Below are positions 206 through 53,500 of a stretch of 64,000 nucleotides of DNA, piece after piece; position 1 is the first letter of the stretch; the number at the start of each line of letters is the position of its first letter. The notes under the pieces were generated by a model. It made no database searches. It saw nothing but the letters and a program-made list of their open reading frames with translations, and had not been told where the DNA came from. The stretch is from positions 36,704,001 to 36,768,000 of the forward strand of contig OZ024757.1 in the NCBI GenBank assembly GCA_964016885.1, read 5' to 3'. The position numbers and the translations under genes are program-made. The DNA comes from Eledone cirrhosa. Taxonomy: Eukaryota.

Positions 206-396
206 TCCTGAGAAAATCGGGGGTATCCACAGAAAATACGGTACTCAATACATTAGTTGTAGAGTGTAAACGTCAGTATTTAATATAGAAATGGCTTCTA
301 CAAGACTATTTCATCCGTATGAAATCATCAGGGATTCCTGATGATTTCATACAGATGAAACAGTTCTAGTCCTGTAAAAGCCATTTCTATATTAAA
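206..396. mobile_element. family A palindromic hammerhead-bearing element (other copies at 14960-15295, 17784-17945, 52781-52972)
   Basis: shared arms TAATATAGAAATGGCTTC...GAAGCCATTTCTATATTA and tail ACTCTACTAATGTATTGAGTAC..TGTGGTTACCC; flanked by (TA)n or (GA)n. Confidence 0.7.
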
Positions 397-1489
397 TGAT
401 ATATATATATATATCAATCAACCATTGCGTTCAGGGGCCCGGTGGTGGGGTAGAGATGATATAATAGTATATTAACTATCAACATATATTTATAAATATA
501 GTAAAATAAAATATATATATTTATTTATACATAGTATATATTATATCATTTATTTCATTTATTATATATAAATTAATGATTTTATTTATTATATATTATT
601 TACAATTTGCGTACAGGCAGGTCTTTCTAGAAATAGGGTTGGGGAGCGTTGAGGGTATTACGTGGCCGTGTGGTGGGGTGGTGGCCCCAAAAGTTTGAGA
701 ACTTCTGCTCTAGCCTGTTACCATCAACAACGACAGCCATACACCACAAAGTTTGTCAATAAACACGTGTATATACATCCCACACCAACAAATTATCTAA
801 TAATTATATACTGACATTTAACTAAGCCACTAAACTCTTACTAAGATCGCACACATAATAAATCTTCTTTAAAAGCATCTAAGCCAGTCATGATTATGTC
901 AGCTAAAACTGCTTTTGTCTGGCCTTCGTTTCAATGGTGACAACATTTTATTTGTTATAATACAGGAGGAGGGAAAGTTGATTAAATACCTCCTCCCTCT
1001 TGGTACTTGACTGGTATTTTATTTTACCGACCTCGAAAGGATGAAAGCTAAAGCTGAACTCAGCAGAATTTGAACTCAGAACATAAAAAGGGCTGTAACA
1101 CTATGCTGCAAGGCATGTCTGATGCTCTACCGATACTGCCAATCCACTGCCCTAATAATGATTTCTACCATAGGCAGGGCCTCCAAGAGAAATTTTGCAA
1201 GGCAGTACAAAACCCCTTTTGGGCCCAAAAGAGGCAAATATTTTTCTCAAAATGGATGTTGCATAGTTGCTGTGGGGCCTTCTTAGCTCTTGGGCTCCGG
1301 AACAAAGAACTGACTGAACCCTCCTCTCATAGGCCCTGACTATAGGTACAAGGCCAGCAATTTGGTGAGAGGGGAAGTCGATTAAATCGACTCCAGAATT
1401 TGTAGTTAGCTAAAAACTTTTCCATTGTAATTTTATATCCCAAACACCATCTTAATAATGAGAAAGTGAATTTTATTATTAAATCCTTC

Positions 1490-2422: not shown

Positions 2423-29178
<26,756 letters not shown>

Positions 29179-34112: not shown

Positions 34113-35229
34113 GGCTTAGTGGTTAGAGCATTGGCCTTGCAATCGAAAGGTTGGGAGTTCAATTCTCAGACCGGGTGATGTGTTGTTTCCTTGAGCAAGA
34201 GACTTTATTTCACATTGCTCCAGTTAACTCATCTGTAGAAATGAGATGATAGGGACTGGGGTCCATGTCATTCCACTGCAAAGTGGACATGTAGGCGCCA
34301 CGGAAAAAAAGCACCCAGCACTCACTGGAAGGGCATCCAGCTGTAGAAATCAAGCCAGAATCAGTTCCCGTCCCACCCTTGCAAGCAGGGAAAAAGCGGA
34401 CGTAAAATGAAATGATGAAATGATGATGATGTATATATAAATATATATGCAAACATACACACATACATACACACCACCCTACATACATATATATATATAT
34501 ACATGCATACATACATATGTATGCATCCATACATACACATATATATATATATACATATATAAATACATACATATATATATATATGCATTCATACATACAT
34601 AAGTACATACATACCACCGTACATACATAATACATACATACATAATACATACATACCACCATACATACGTACATATATATATACATACATATATATGTTG
34701 TTTTTTTTTCTTTATCTTTTTCGTTGGATTTTTATGAGCGAGTATTTTAAGAATGGTTTTACCAAGATATTGGCAACAGAGGAAGTAATATGTTCATATG
34801 GGCTACATCTTTTAACTTTCTCCAGATAAGAGTACAAGGTTTACGTTGATATTGTTGTTGTTGTCGTTGTTGAGTCTTGAAGCAGTTTATTTTTGGAGTA
34901 TTTAGCAAAGGAGCTATTAAAAACATTGGCAATTTCATCTTAAAACTAAATAAAATAATCATATATATGGAAAAAAATGAAATTTCATTTCTCACTCTGA
35001 GTACGGCTGATACTTAAATATAAGTATATATACGTACATACATACATGTATACAGACGTACAGTAGTATGTATATATATACATACATGCACACATATATA
35101 TATATATGTATGTATGGGTTTACCGAACATTTATTATAATGTTCGGTTTGTTTGTAAACAAACAGCCCGAATTATGCCGTACAGTGTTCGGCAACCATCG
35201 TTGCTCTTTTGTTCAACACTGACAAAGGA

Positions 35230-35272
35230 ACGATGAACTAGTTTCTAGCTTATTAGCTGTCATCAGCACCGT
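35230..35272 (-). ncRNA. minimal type I hammerhead ribozyme
   Basis: ACGGUG-CUGAUGA-C-AGCU-AAUA-AGCU-A-GAAAC-UA-GUU^-CAUCGU; 6-bp stem I, 4-bp stem II, palindromic stem III ACUAGU. Confidence 0.8.
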
Positions 35273-35522
35273 ATACCTTCCTGACAGTCGATTGAACGTT
35301 TGAAAGTATATACTTTCCTTATGCATATTAACGGCTGAGCAGCCTAATTTGCATATCGAGTGAGTTAGTTGGCCGGGCGTACCGAAAACGATAAATGGAA
35401 AAAATGAAATTTATATATACACATATACACACACGAGGAGGTGCTGAAAAGATTTGGGCTTTGAGTAAAAGAAAATATAGAAGGATTAGTTAATTATGAT
35501 TTTATTCAACATTGCTCTAAAC

Positions 35523-36915
35523 CAGGGGCGTGCAATAGGCGGCTCTCGGGTCACAATCCGGCCCGCCAGACCTGTCAGAGTGACCCGCGGGCTACAATCC
35601 GGCCCACCCGACCAGTCAGTGACCCATGGGCCACAATCCGGCTCGCCAGACCAGTCAGAGTGACCCGCAGTGACCGTTGTTAATTTTTACCTTGTAGGCT
35701 TATTTAGAATTGTTTTCGTAACCGTAATACAATTTTCTGTTAGTTGACCTATACTAAAGGGCTTCACTGATAGGGTTATGTGTGTTATAATTTCCCAGTT
35801 ATATATATATATACTCAGGCGACTGGGTCGATGCCCTACCCGTGGCCAACGTTGGTGGCCTACTCAGCCTGGACGAACTTCGTGTCTCCATCGCCCTCAG
35901 AGTGGGAGCTGGCGTCTGCATGGGTTTGAGGTGCCGATGCGGCAAACTCCTCGACTTTACAGGCCTCCACGGTCTTTGTTACCGCCTGAATGCTGGCCGC
36001 TTCGCGCGTCACACGGAGCTAAACCTCATTCTGAAGAGAGCTTTGGCCCGGGCGAATATCCCCTCAGTCTTGGAACCATCTGGGTTGTCCAGAAGTGACG
36101 GCAAAAGATCTGACGGTCTTACCCTGTGCCCCTGGTCGAGAGGCAGGTGCCTTGTCTGGGATGTCACTGTTAGTGAGTCCTTTGCTCTTTCCCACATCCT
36201 GAATGCTGCGGTTAGGACGAGAGCCACAGCTTCTGCAGCCGAGCGGAGTAAGGCCCTCAAATACTCTGATCTGTCGGGCAGCTACATTCTTCAGCTTGTG
36301 ACTTTCGAGACGTTTGGGGGAGTCGGGCCGCTGACTACGAGGTTCCTTTCCTCACTGGCGGCTCGCCTAATAGAGGTGACTAGCGAATCTCACGAGGGCG
36401 CTTGGCTGTTTTAGCGCATCAGCCTCGCCATCACCCGAGGTAACACCGCGAGTGTGCTGGCTTGCCTAAAAACTCATTAGAGAGGTTGCCCAGTACTCGC
36501 GATGTTGCTGTCTTTTGCTCTGGTGTTGGCTCCGTTGCTCACCCCTTCTTTTACATTTTCTTTAATATTGTAGCATTGAAGGAATATATCTTTCATTATA
36601 TCATCCTTTGTAGTGTTACCGAAGCATTTGTAATGTTATTTATGTATTTATTTAAAACATATTTGTTATGTTATTCTACTGTAAATTTATTTATATGCTC
36701 TGTTTATATTTTCGTTCTGAAGGAATTGCAAACGATTTGTAATGTTGTTTGTGCAACTATGAAGTATATATTTATGAAATAAAAATAATTATGTGTAATG
36801 GAAGAAAGAAAGAAGTGGTGAATCTTTGGAATAGTGCTTAATAAATATTAATGCCCCTAATAGTTGTTCCAATGTTCAAAAGTGACCCGCCAATGGAATA
36901 TGTTGCACACCCCTG
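35523..36915. mobile_element. non-autonomous hAT (Charlie-like) DNA transposon
   Basis: TIRs CAGGGGCGTGCAA / TTGCACACCCCTG, 8-bp TSD ctctaaac / atctaaac, subterminal repeats (cacaatccggcccgccagacc..gtgacccgc)x3. Confidence 0.8.
35812..36480 (+). pseudogene. 3' fragment of a non-LTR retrotransposon with restriction-like endonuclease (CRE-like), nested in the hAT element
   Basis: CxCG..LD..GLH.LC zinc motif, RH..LN, LEP.GL.RSDGKRSDG, WDVTV, AE..K..KY, ETFG, then *RISLAITRGN after a premature TAG at 36412. Confidence 0.75.
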
Positions 36916-39290: not shown

Positions 39291-40154
39291 ATATATATGT
39301 GTGTGTTTGTAATACTGGCGTTCTTGTTGGTCCTTCGTCGTTTACGACGACGAGTGTTCTAGTTGATTCAATCGACAGACCTGCCTGCTCGTGAAAGTAA
39401 CGTGTAAGTGACTGAGCAGCATTCTGCAGACACGTTGTATCCTTAATGTACGTAGTTCTCAGGGAGATTCAGTGTGTCACACTGTGTGACAAGGATGGTT
39501 TCTTTGAATTGCAGGTATAAATAAATTCGTTTTTTTTTTGCCGGTTGAGTGACAGGACAAGAACAACGTGAATCTCCCTGAGAACTAAGTTAAAGGTACA
39601 TATGTCTGTGGAATGCTCCGATACTTTACACTGCATGTATGATTTAAGGGAGACTTGTTTGCTATTTCAATTGCTCATTATATATCATCATCACCATCAT
39701 CGATTAACGTCCATCTTCCACGCTATTTTGAGGCAAGTTGTGTCGGGTGATCGTGTCTCGCTCAAATAGGGGTGTTTCTGGCTGGTTTTCTACGGCTGGG
39801 TGCCTTTCCTAACGCCAACCACATTTTCAGAGTGGGCTGGGTGCTTTTTTGCTGTGTCTTTTACACATCCACTTTAATATATATATATATATGTGTGTGT
39901 GTGTGAGCTGCCAGCCAATTATTCAGTGATGTAAAATGTATTATTCAGTAAATCTTCTGTTTGGTGTATGTAAACATAGTTTATAATATGTTCTGGTTTG
40001 GCTGGGGAAGAACTTCTGAGCCATGGAGTCTAGAACTACCAGTCATGGGAGTGACTATTTCTAGTAATATCACACATATGTATCACTCTCTCTGTATATA
40101 TATATATATTATATATTTAATTAGAAAGTGAACAACACAAAATATAACTACTTC

Positions 40155-40305
40155 ATTACCAAAGGTTTCTGGATCCCAGACAATATTAATATATGTCTGG
40201 ATCGGTCATCAGACAGAGATGTTATGGATAGAAAATAACATCTCTGTCTGATGACCGATCCAGACATATATTAATATTGTCTGGGATCCAGAAACCTTTG
40301 GTAAT
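40155..40305. repeat. perfect 71-bp inverted repeat; each arm carries a hammerhead core
   Basis: arms 40155-40225 and 40235-40305 are exact reverse complements; CTGATGA 40248-40254, GAAAC 40291-40295, GTA 40301-40303. Confidence 0.85.
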
Positions 40306-40679
40306 TAAATAACTGTTCTATACATAGAACATTCTTTTTTCCTTTGCTTTTTCTTCGGAATTACCTAACATATATATATATATATAAAGTCTAAAGTCTA
40401 AAGTCTGTCTTAAGCCAGAAGGGTCATTTGGCCAGTGCTTATCCTGGTAAATTTTACCTACCGCTGCCATTGACAGCATTTTGCTGTTTTAACAGCTTCC
40501 TTGCACTAAGTTCTTCAAATTACTCTATAACTATATATATATATATATATATACACACTTATACACACAACACATATATATATGGTATTTACATTAACAA
40601 TGGAACTTACTTTTGCATTACCAGAATTAAGTCCAACTGTTAATATATATACTATAAACTTCCAGTTTATTAGACAGCA

Positions 40680-50562: not shown

Positions 50563-53500
50563 ATATATATTTATTAGCACAGATTAAAAGTTTAAGCAAA
50601 CAATTATTTCTGCTTTCACCTGGACTTTCTATTTATTATTACTTCTATACACATATATATATATAGTATAAAGAGTTGAGACCCCAATGGCTGACCCCAA
50701 TGGCTGAGCTATTTCAACAGCTAGTTCCAGCCTGACATATATATATATATATATATATGATGAACTGCAGGATCATTAAATCTGTTGAACTGTTGGTTCA
50801 ATTAATCTGTAGGATAAATTATGTAATTATATCAATATCTGTTAGATCAATATTACTGTATAAATCAATGGACCAGATCAATAGACCAGGTCTGTTAGAT
50901 CAACAGACCAGATCTAGATCAGATCTGTTAGATCACTATTACTGTATAAATCAACAGATCAGATGTGTTAACTCAACAGACCAGATCTTTTAAATTAATT
51001 ATTACTATTTAACTCAACAGACCACATCTGTTAGATCAATTATTAGTGTATAACTCAACAGACCAGATGTGTTAGACAAACTGAAGTAGTGGATTAATAC
51101 TTACACCGTTGCATTTAGCACATTTCTGAGCATAAGTATTTTCGAAACATGGGATACAGACAACTTCATCTCCACGAGGAATGAAGCTCTTGTTTTTAAT
51201 AGCCTCCTTACAGACGTTGCACAGGAAACATTCTTCATGCCACTGAGTATTTTTGTATTCAAATTTCTTCATTCCTACAACATTAAAACAAACAAACAGA
51301 TAAATAAATAGATATATATATAGTAGTATAATTAATACAAAGAATTGTAAGATATATAATAAATATATATATATAGTTAATACAAAGAATTGTGACATAT
51401 GTAATTAATATATATCTAGTATAGTTTATACAAAACATTGTAAGTTATATAATAAATATATATCTAGTATAGTTTATACAAAGCATTGTGAGATATGTAA
51501 TAGAAGACCGGTACAATGTGGTAGAAAAATACAAATGGTAAATGATGACAAATAATACAGAACAAAGTAATGTTTTACCCAGTGTATTTCAACATAATAT
51601 TTCAGGGTTATAAACCTCTTTTCAAATGTGGGATTGAAACAGTTCAAAGTAAGACGAGCGATCGATGTGCTTAAATAAATAGATAGATATCAGAGAGAAG
51701 CTTTTAGAAAGAAAGTTAAAACTCTCTTTCATCTGTGTGTTCGTATATGTTCCAGCTCGCTGTGTTCCAAGTTTAAATCCTGCTCAGGTCAACATTGCCT
51801 TTCGTTTTTTGGGGGTCTGGGGACAATAAATAAAGGGGGCTGTATTATTACATCTACTACTACTGCCTGTTATACCCACTGGTAAGTAGGGCAGTAATAA
51901 AGGTCCTCCATTCCTGTCTGTCTTGGGCCAGCTTCTGGATGGTACCCCATGTGTGTTACTAGGTCTTCATCTCTCCCTCAACAGTTCTGTGTCAGGGGTT
52001 CTTTGGCCTTCCTCATTTACATCCATTACACCAATCCCTTATAATATTAATTACAAGATAAACTTTGTATGTAAACCAAGAGCTGTAGGCACTTTAAACA
52101 GTTTGTTAACATCCACCACACCAATCCCCTCTAATAATAATTACCAAAATAAACTTTGTATGACGATGAAGAGCTGTGCTTCCTTTATAAAAGTTTCTAA
52201 CATCCATTACACCAATCCCCTAGAACATTAATTGCAAGATAAACTTTATATGATGACGACGAAGGGCCTTACCTCCTTTAAATGGTTTTTTGCAACCATC
52301 ACACCTAGCAGCAAACAGCTCATCATGGCAATCAGAACAGAAAATTTCGTCATCCTTGTAAGCAAAAGGCTGGTTAACAAGGCTCTTATGACACTCACAG
52401 CACTTGAAGCAGGCTTCATGCCAATGTTTGTCTTTGTAGGACAAGTCCTGGAGAATAAAAAAAAGAATGACAGATGAAACAAAAACATATATAAACATAT
52501 ACAATGAACCTCAGTTCACTCACACATAAATATATATATTTTTAGTGAAGGCGTGTGGCTGATTGGTTAGAGAACTGGATTCGCAATTGTGAGGTTGTCA
52601 GTTCGATTCCTGGACTAGGCGATGTGTTATGTCCTTGAGCAAGACACTTTATTTCACGATGCTCCTTCTACCTGGAGTTGCGACCGATACATAGTATTTG
52701 CAATTGGAAAGACCAATGGAAACATTGTTTCCTCGGTCTGATTTGACGAAAGTCGATCGACAAAAAAAATATATATATATTTTAATATAGAAATGGCTTC
52801 TACAGGACTAGAACTATTTCATTCGAAGGAAATCATCAGAGCTTTCCTGATGATTTCCTTCGAATGAAACAGTTCTAGTACTGAAGAAGCCATTTCTATA
52901 TTAAAAAATGTATACTTTGCTATGTATTGAGTACTTTACTTACTGTGGTTACCCCTGATTGAACCCGGGATACACATATTTATATATATATATATTTTCT
53001 CTCAAAGTTGTAAGGGAATCATTCTCAGGCCTGATCAATACAGATCGAACATTGACCTGATCAATCACGAAATGCGCATCACACCTCAATAAATGTAATG
53101 AAGATTTAACACCTTGTCCTTTTTATTATTACTATATATATCACCATCGTGATCATGTATATATATACATGGGTGTTAGGAAGGGCATCAAACTGTGGAA
53201 CTCCTAGCCAAAATACAGTTCTGTTTGAGCAAGGTACTACTCGGCCAGCTGGCCAGTGTCGTGACGTGGATGACCCATCAAACCAATGCAAGTATGGAAA
53301 AATATATGTTAAACGATGATGATGATGATGATATATATATATATATATAATATATATATATATATATAATATATATATATATATAATCAAATTAAAAGAT
53401 ATAGAGCCATATATCGTAAAAGAAACACGGTATATTGTGTATATACCAAATACATATTCTATAGAAGAATATGTACACAGGTGGAATCATAAGTGAAACC

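What the first reader, a model, noticed from the sequence alone, without database searches (positions are those of the whole stretch)
35110..35410. Cleanest hammerhead: 43-nt minimal ribozyme on the minus strand that could only work as a dimer
35272->35230 reads ACGGUG CUGAUGA C AGCU AAUA AGCU A GAAAC UA GUU^ CAUCGU. All core nucleotides are present, with a 6-bp stem I and a 4-bp stem II above a C.A pair. Stem III would need a 2-nt loop, but ACUAGU is self-complementary, which suits the double-hammerhead mode. The host island lies between (TA)n/(CA)n tracts and ends on - in a hairpin ACCGAACATT-ATAATA-AATGTTCGGT that overlaps an AATAAA. An octamer ATTTGCAT near 35347 lies upstream.
Basis: partly seen in the sequence, partly recalled or inferred. 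Interest (0 to 1): 0.75.

Follow-up and report, generated by a model that had tools for sequence, protein, structure and literature searches.

The report
Hammerhead retrozyme with snRNA-like promoter
This self-cutting-RNA motif is a textbook animal hammerhead sitting in one copy of an abundant 430-base non-coding repeat that was likely spread by Penelope-type jumping genes; it likely cuts well only in pairs, as known for salamander repeats, and its unit carries promoter-like blocks matching the host's own small-RNA genes, which would let it transcribe itself (untested).

Summary
The hammerhead at 35272->35230 (-) is real, but it is a canonical metazoan type I motif, not a minimal one. It has a 6-bp helix I with a covarying distal extension, a 4-bp helix II and a palindromic helix III. 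It lies inside a ~430-bp non-coding unit (35412->34961) with 550 exact copies of the 39-nt core; the wider motif occurs 23,570 times against 4 in the control. Copies form partial tandems, long arrays and head-to-head arms in (TA)n, ending at two fixed sites ~55 bp apart, the Penelope 'tail' footprint. It is a non-LTR retrozyme, a known kind. Dimer cleavage is published for such motifs, and five different helix III sequences here are all self-complementary; 'only as a dimer' is too strong. The octamer is part of a box found at -77 to -79 in this genome's U6, U6atac and MRP promoters, followed by a U1/U2-like TCAG and a TATA, so self-transcription is plausible but untested. This scan already reported sister families, and the promoter idea, on other DNA of this genome.

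The parts
34961..35412 (-). Whole insertion: one 427-nt unit plus ~20 nt of the next; single arm, between TA-rich flanks
   Evidence: Copies align over 35412->34961; unit length 427 in this copy; 4 differences from the per-column majority in the non-repetitive part
35344..35355 (-). Box TATGCAAATTAG (contains the octamer)
   Evidence: Identical to the box of one U6 promoter; like boxes at -77 to -79 in 3 distinct U6, 1 U6atac and 1 RNase MRP promoter; no such box in 6 U1 loci and only weak scores in 3 U2 loci; function inferred
35335..35338 (-). TCAG, at the place of the U1/U2 proximal element relative to TATA
   Evidence: 9 of 9 U1/U2 promoters have TCA(G/A)T at -56 to -58; match of the full motif not significant in this family (p 0.22), p<0.05 in 5 of 15 retrozyme spacers tested
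35307..35312 (-). TATATA, 43 nt after the box; predicts a start near 35282-35281
   Evidence: spacing 4-6 nt shorter than in the five host Pol III promoters (47-49); start site inferred
35219..35287 (-). Extended canonical type I hammerhead (helix I with internal loop and distal helix, helix II, palindromic helix III)
   Evidence: 16 of 24 pairs change on both sides across 15 sequences of 5 families; 0 of 500 shuffles reach this
35237..35242 (-). ACUAGU palindrome, helix III of a double hammerhead; predicted cut after U35236
   Evidence: 95 of the first 100 listed motifs keep ACTAGT where two letters were left free (copies not independent)
35122..35147 (-). Internal hairpin with AAUAAA overlapping its loop; not the end of the element
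   Evidence: a sister family keeps a hairpin with other arms around the same loop (by eye)
35015..35115 (-). Internal self-complementary TA/CA/TG tract; the 'short' 3' end of copies lies at its far edge (35018-35015)
   Evidence: 28 of 58 sampled arm ends fall in this class; folds into long hairpins
34968..35017 (-). Optional ~50-55 nt 'tail' with a hairpin and a T7 run; 'long' 3' end, running into (AT)n
   Evidence: 19 of 58 arm ends; 9 of 18 two-armed insertions pair one long with one short end, none pair two long ends

Best explanation
This is one copy of an abundant ~430-base non-coding repeat with a canonical type I hammerhead, a non-LTR retrozyme, that is likely transcribed from its own snRNA-like promoter, likely cut mainly as a double hammerhead, and likely re-inserted by Penelope-type enzymes. 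Shown: the motif, its covariation, copy number, tandem and head-to-head layout, two fixed 3' ends in (TA)n, Penelope-like elements with long RT plus GIY-YIG frames in the genome, and promoter-like blocks shared with host snRNA genes. Inferred steps: (1) transcription starts near 35282, about 46 nt before the cut site, and reads through tandem units; (2) neighbouring hammerheads pair their ACUAGU palindromes into a 6-bp helix III and cut out unit-length RNA, while a lone unit stays mostly uncut; (3) the unit is closed to a circle or stays an uncut multimer; (4) a Neptune/Nematis-type Penelope protein nicks (TA)n DNA and starts reverse transcription at either of two internal sites, often from both sides of the break, running past the cut site; (5) copying more than one unit puts the promoter back in front of a ribozyme. 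The window copy is a single arm, so it would have no partner in cis.
For: Core and helices. 550 exact and 23,570 degenerate motifs against 0 and 4 controls. Tandem arrays of 466-bp units, at least 31 listed in a row with an inverted copy at the 5' side. In 40 sampled loci: 18 two-armed, 47 of 58 ends at two sites, 5' ends scattered, only 2 of 58 near the cut site, 16 of 58 arms over 440 bp. Opposite arms share rare variants in 16 of 41 pairs against 722 of 8,819 between loci (pairs not independent). Sense-strand A>G exceeds T>C, 128 against 41, or 76 against 41 without one hot site (p 0.016). RT plus GIY-YIG frames of 636-1,096 aa exist and many such loci carry palindromic hammerheads behind the frame. 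Box at -77 to -79 in five host Pol III promoters; box+TATA pattern 23,440 against 669 control, and unrelated families with it carry hammerhead-like cores 85-101 nt downstream. Papers: PMC4209133, PMC7229834, PMC11167929, PMC8557442, preprint 10.64898/2026.07.22.740005.
Against: No cleavage, circle or start site was observed. Predicted lowest-energy folds are not the hammerhead, for monomer or dimer: this family can form an AGCUAG/CUAGUU hairpin over the core, and has C.A at the base of helix II, so it may cut poorly. Rfam gives no hammerhead hit. No sequence link to any autonomous element in 50 GIY-YIG loci, apart from two retrozyme insertions. Box-to-TATA spacing is 43 against 47-49 in host Pol III genes, and the U1/U2-like motif is not significant in this family. 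The A>G excess is weak at site level (40 against 33 sites), and its hot site may be a subfamily variant. Opposite arms differ almost as much as unrelated copies (54 against 62 per kb). In the one Penelope element tested in vitro, hammerhead cleavage was not needed for insertion (PMC11167929).
Confidence: 0.82

Rival explanations
1. Same mobile family, but the ribozyme of this subfamily is largely inactive. It spreads as uncut read-through RNA that Penelope proteins copy, and the hammerhead is inherited baggage.
For: C.A at the helix II base and a competing hairpin over the core in predicted folds; no pile-up of copy ends at the cut site; PMC11167929 found uncut RNA to be the main substrate for a Penelope protein in vitro.
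Against: Core invariant and helices covarying across five families; sister families tolerate U.U at the same place, as does axolotl Amex2, which cleaves; nearest-neighbour folding ignores tertiary contacts.
Confidence: 0.1
2. The units are solo pseudo-LTRs, that is 5'-truncated 3' ends, of an autonomous Penelope element that I did not find, not a self-standing retrozyme.
For: Partial tandems, inversions and tails are the normal layout of Penelope insertions (PMC8557442); only 150 of 10,597 GIY-YIG candidates were scored and 50 loci read.
Against: Whenever a copy exceeds one unit it continues into another unit, never into a reading frame; long arrays of pure units; hammerheads of the Penelope loci read have a different core (U3-A8) and lack the box.
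Confidence: 0.05
3. The retrozyme reading is right, but the box, TCAG and TATA are not a working promoter; RNA comes from read-through of host transcription.
For: Spacing differs from host Pol III promoters and the U1/U2-like motif is weak here; AT-rich DNA gives TATA easily; no start site seen.
Against: The same box and TATA stand before hammerhead-like cores in families otherwise unlike each other, at near-constant distance, and match host promoters found independently; a newt hammerhead satellite is reported to use an snRNA promoter (cited in PMC2220036).
Confidence: 0.35
4. Chance match, or a host regulatory RNA unique to this locus.
For: Rfam has no hit.
Against: Hundreds of exact and thousands of related copies, controls near zero, compensatory changes.
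Confidence: 0.01

Closest known systems
Metazoan non-LTR retrozymes (Cervera and de la Pena 2020, PMC7229834: passages and section 15 read; Li, Clavereau and Pollet 2026, preprint 10.64898/2026.07.22.740005: part 1 of 5 and passages read)
   Same: Non-coding unit of a few hundred bases, low GC, canonical type I hammerhead, monomers to long tandem arrays, thousands of copies, co-occurring with Penelope elements; axolotl Amex1 has the same 1-bp plus palindromic-tetraloop helix III and needs dimers for efficient cleavage.
   Different: Unit of 430-500 bp is at or above the top of the 150-450 bp range given; head-to-head arms, two fixed ends and an internal promoter-like block were not in the passages I read (the word 'promoter' does not occur in the preprint); expression and circles are untested here.
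Newt satellite 2 (Coats, Zhang and Epstein 1994; paper not held; seen only as a sentence and reference in PMC2220036)
   Same: Hammerhead satellite with weak helix III, dimer cleavage, and an internal snRNA-type promoter (reported as Pol II).
   Different: Here the block joins a box seen in host Pol III genes (U6, U6atac, MRP) to a U1/U2-like TCAG and TATA; polymerase unknown; many copies are dispersed and two-armed.
Penelope-like elements, Neptune/Nematis type (PMC4209133 part 1 of 4 read; PMC8557442 and PMC11167929 passages read)
   Same: Hammerhead with palindromic helix III, partial tandems, 5' inversions, optional tail from two reverse-transcription start sites, AT-rich targets.
   Different: No reading frame; canonical rather than minimal hammerhead; tail ~50-55 nt against 30-40; no sequence match to the 50 Penelope loci read; clade named from the cysteine motif only, no tree built.

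Membership tests
Canonical metazoan type I hammerhead | Core CUGANGA / GAAA / UH with helix I open | tested here: met
   core invariant except N7
Canonical metazoan type I hammerhead | Helix I 6 bp, helix II 4 bp, helix III 1-2 bp with palindromic loop (PMC4209133) | tested here: met
   98.9% of helix I cells paired, 5 of 6 pairs covary; 3 of the 4 upper helix II pairs covary
Canonical metazoan type I hammerhead | Loop 1-loop 2 tertiary contact | tested here: inconclusive
   Internal loop and AANA loop 2 are conserved; the contact itself cannot be shown
Canonical metazoan type I hammerhead | Self-cleavage | not testable with these tools
   Needs an in vitro assay
Minimal hammerhead (min-HHR) of Penelope elements | Long helix II (7-8 bp), short helix I with poorly defined loop 1 | tested here: not met
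   Helix II is 4 bp and helix I is extended
Non-LTR retrozyme | Short non-coding unit bearing a type I hammerhead | tested here: met
   427-nt unit; only short frames over it, none above 84 aa
Non-LTR retrozyme | [quoted passage not shown] | tested here: met
   L031 has four units, three with the intact core; the window copy itself is a monomer
Non-LTR retrozyme | No LTR, PBS or PPT; dispersed high copy number | tested here: met
   Ends run into (TA)n with no terminal repeats; 550 exact cores; PBS and PPT not searched explicitly
Non-LTR retrozyme | Expressed as linear and circular unit RNA | not testable with these tools
   No run on record as RNA was listed; contigs cannot show ends or circles
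Penelope-mobilised element | Partial tandem, 5' inversion, optional tail, AT-rich target | tested here: met
Penelope-mobilised element | Sequence shared with an autonomous partner's pseudo-LTR | tested here: inconclusive
   None in 50 loci of 10,597 candidates
Type 3 Pol III (U6-like) promoter | Host upstream box plus TATA | tested here: met
   Box scores 14.7 bits, second best of 127,968 window positions; TATA present
Type 3 Pol III (U6-like) promoter | Host box-to-TATA spacing (47-49 nt) | tested here: not met
   43 nt here; 41-44 in 13 of 15 retrozyme spacers, 48 in two
Pol II snRNA (U1/U2-like) promoter | Proximal element TCA(G/A)T about 23-28 nt before TATA | tested here: inconclusive
   TCAG 26 nt before TATA; full motif p 0.22 here, p<0.05 in 5 of 15 spacers, four of them one family

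The most novel reading that the evidence does not exclude
These retrozymes are self-sufficient transcription units with a hybrid promoter. A box taken from the host's Pol III snRNA genes is joined to a U1/U2-type proximal element and TATA, kept across many otherwise unrelated hammerhead families in about 23,000 places. Because the promoter lies upstream of the start, the element can only keep it by being copied from a circle or read-through multimer for more than one turn. That makes dimer-gated cleavage, circularisation and Penelope two-sided copying one obligatory cycle, testable with a single short construct.
Probability: 0.4. Interest if true: 0.62.

Novelty: new member of a known kind. 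Interest (0 to 1): 0.38.

Why it matters
The ribozyme and its dimer mode are known biology. The value lies in the family. How animal retrozymes are transcribed and inserted is still proposed rather than shown in the papers read. Here the genome gives a predicted start site, a predicted cut site 46 nt later, two predicted reverse-transcription start sites and candidate helper enzymes, all at base resolution. As a by-product, the comparison outlines this animal's U6-type and U1/U2-type promoter elements, useful for guide-RNA expression. The scan has already noted sister families and the promoter idea, so this window adds a further family and a sharper host comparison.

Tried and rejected
Rfam at gathering score (whole window) and at E<=10 (34700-35800): no hammerhead family, only microsatellite-driven miRNA look-alikes. 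A recalled Pfam accession was not in the library. Search for an autonomous partner: BLAST of retrozyme units against 30 and then 50 GIY-YIG loci gave only two retrozyme insertions and low-complexity or chance hits. Expression: no RNA holder listed; laying four runs of unrecorded library type gave contigs only and says nothing on RNA. Pile-up of 5' ends at the cut site or predicted start: absent, 2 and 1 of 58. Hairpin/AATAAA as terminus: rejected. A plain U6-type promoter: spacing not met. The Coats 1994 and Ferbeyre 1998 papers are not held. Paper searches showed no paper on this family or on retrozyme promoters in this animal group; most subscription journals and bioRxiv supplements are not covered, and no supplements were opened, so repeat libraries or supplements may already list the family. 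Sequence look-up in earlier findings gave nothing. The neighbouring 207-aa frame had no Pfam or PDB match. Five U6 loci of the tandem cluster with a replaced upstream region, U6/U6atac copies without a promoter, and 10 U6 copies whose start my motif did not find were left out of the promoter set, so 'five promoters' means five chosen as intact-looking.

Full report
Observation. My descriptor scan of both strands of the window returned this as the only type I hammerhead. The cut would fall between 35236 and 35235. The hairpin at 35147->35122 and the octamer at 35347-35354 are present. Rfam did not recognise the motif at any threshold tried, and the lowest-energy folds pair the core away; both count against an easy call and are why I sought comparative evidence.

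It is a high-copy element. A search of the 3.0-Gb host genome with 35110-35410 gave 2,339 candidates; the best match in each of the 40 scored regions was 96-100% identical. The exact 39-nt core occurs 550 times against 0 for the reversed control. A pattern with free helix II and free loop III occurs 23,570 times against 4, including a run of at least 31 units at 466-bp spacing with an inverted copy at its 5' side. Aligning copies puts the ends at 35412 and about 34961, a 427-nt unit plus about 20 nt of the next. The TA/CA tract at 35115-35015 is therefore internal, and the hairpin is not the terminus: none of 58 arm ends lay there. Mean divergence of 154 pieces from the column majority was 3.4% (pieces under 88% identity dropped).

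The ribozyme is canonical, not minimal. Over 15 hand-picked sequences of five families, 16 of 24 named pairs change on both sides and 91% of cells pair; no shuffle of 500 reached this, and slid controls fell to 34-49% (relatedness inflates the shuffle test). Helix I continues beyond an internal loop into a distal helix, so the motif spans about 69 nt. PMC4209133 (part 1 of 4 read) describes this as the usual metazoan form: helix I 6 bp, helix II 4 bp, helix III 1-2 bp with a small palindromic loop, active as a dimer in tandem repeats. Five different helix III sequences were seen by eye in this genome, all self-complementary: ACUAGU, ACGCGU, AUGCAU, ACAAUUGU and, in Penelope elements, ACCGGU. 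Closing helix III changes the computed energy by +5.4 kcal/mol in the monomer and -2.8 in the dimer, although a non-hammerhead dimer scores lower still, -36.0 against -25.8. The axolotl motif of the same build gave 6% cleavage as a monomer and much more as a dimer (PMC7229834 section 15), so 'mainly as a dimer' is the fair wording. This family's C.A closing pair and a competing hairpin leave open that it cuts poorly.

The copies bear a Penelope footprint. I read 40 consecutive exact-match places on contig C1, skipping five multi-hit places fetched earlier as L032, L033, L034, L036 and L037, which biases against paired layouts. Eighteen of 40 were head-to-head two-armed. Of 58 outer ends, 28 fell near unit position 395, 19 near 445 and 11 elsewhere; most ran into (TA)n. 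Nine two-armed insertions paired a long with a short end and none paired two long ends. PMC11167929 (passages) shows a Penelope protein cutting AT-rich DNA on both strands and starting reverse transcription at two adjacent internal sites, which explains the optional tail; PMC8557442 (passages) describes partial tandems, 5' inversions and tails. The 5' ends were scattered, with 2 of 58 near the cut site, and 16 of 58 arms exceeded 440 bp as summed, so the template was a circle or an uncut multimer (inferred). Opposite arms shared a rare variant in 16 of 41 pairs against 722 of 8,819 pairs between loci, yet differed at 54 against 62 sites per kb, which is modest support for one template. Sense-strand A>G outnumbered T>C 128 to 41, but 52 came from one site; without it 76 to 41 (p 0.016), and by distinct sites 40 to 33: weak.

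Candidate helpers exist but were not tied to this family. A GIY-YIG search gave 10,597 candidates, 150 scored. Three long frames tested matched RT; two of them also matched GIY-YIG at the C-terminus in that scan, preceded by a cysteine motif that PMC8557442 assigns to Neptune and Nematis. Their loci end in (TA)n and often carry U3-A8 hammerheads with an ACCGGU palindrome. No sequence was shared with the retrozyme in 50 loci, other than two insertions of the retrozyme itself.

The octamer is part of a promoter-like block. Three distinct U6 promoters, one U6atac and the RNase MRP promoter have TATG(C/G)(A/T)AAT(T/G)AG at -77 to -79 and TATA at about -30; these five were chosen as intact-looking, and promoterless copies were left out. 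Six U1 loci lacked the box, and three U2 loci scored 3-5 bits against 14.7 for the window element. Nine of nine U1/U2 promoters instead have TCA(G/A)T at -56 to -58. The element has the box at 35355->35344, TCAG at 35338 and TATATA at 35312. A box+TATA pattern occurs 23,440 times against 669, and unrelated families found by it have hammerhead or hammerhead-like cores 85-101 nt downstream (several degenerate ones judged by eye). Against a plain U6 promoter, the spacing is 43 rather than 47-49. Against a plain U1/U2 promoter, the full proximal motif is not significant here (p 0.22), though it is in 5 of 15 retrozyme spacers. Both rules predict a start at 35282-35281, about 46 nt before the cut. 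A newt hammerhead satellite is reported to use an snRNA promoter with Pol II (sentence in PMC2220036; original not held). No run on record as RNA was available, so transcription is untested.

Mechanism committed to: self-promoted read-through transcription, double-hammerhead cleavage, a circular or multimeric template, and Penelope-driven insertion from one or both sides of a break in (TA)n. Structure, copy number, layout and motif matches are shown; every RNA-level step is inferred. The window copy is a lone arm.

Comparison and verdict. It meets the testable criteria of a metazoan non-LTR retrozyme (PMC7229834; preprint 10.64898/2026.07.22.740005, part 1 of 5 and passages read) and fails those of a minimal Penelope hammerhead. 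Six paper searches did not show this family, within the limits of the library. Earlier AI notes of this scan describe sister families with two-armed ends, editing marks and an snRNA-like promoter on other DNA of the same genome; these prompted my end-class, editing and arm tests. Novelty: new member of a known kind; interest 0.38.

Noticed in passing
window 35791-36414 (+): 207-aa frame with a cysteine/histidine motif and an LEPSGL...DGKR.DGLT...WDVT stretch that resembles the restriction-like endonuclease end of CRE-type retrotransposons (recalled); no Pfam or PDB match.
   Followed up: partly
L031 (G000:C1:411520000-411521700) and G000:C1:14045471-14047379: Variants alternate with a period of two units: units 1/3 and 2/4 of L031 are more alike (6 and 2 differences against 7-10), and a loop III variant recurs every second unit in another array. 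This would fit a two-unit circle as template, or a later duplication.
   Followed up: partly
L211-L218, L134-L137, L158, L102-L104, L164, L210: Host snRNA promoter layout: a shared (A/T)CCTCCC(T) motif near -260 to -270 in most U1, U2 and U6 genes; TCA(G/A)T at -57 and a TATA-like box near -30 in U1/U2; an octamer-containing box at -78 in Pol III genes.
   Followed up: partly
L072-L101, L114-L133: Several Neptune/Nematis-type Penelope families use a U3-A8 core (UUGANAA) with GAAACCGGUA/C; one has the same U.U-closed 4-bp helix II as a retrozyme family.
   Followed up: partly
window 40150-40330: Palindromic block with two CUGAUGA...GAAAC motifs on opposite strands sharing a long helix II-like stem; may be a minimal-hammerhead remnant.
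   Followed up: no
window 290-400, ~14940-15040 and ~52790-52900: A repeated palindromic element with CTGATGA...GAAA on both strands; it does not close a hammerhead helix I by eye.
   Followed up: no
L108, L109, L111-L113 (G000:C19:31.79-31.83 Mb): In the tandem U6 cluster, some units have the upstream box replaced by a fragment of another repeat just before the TATA.
   Followed up: no
L249, L250: A hammerhead-like repeat family with box-to-TATA spacing of 48, exactly as in host U6 genes; best candidate for a true Pol III-driven retrozyme.
   Followed up: no
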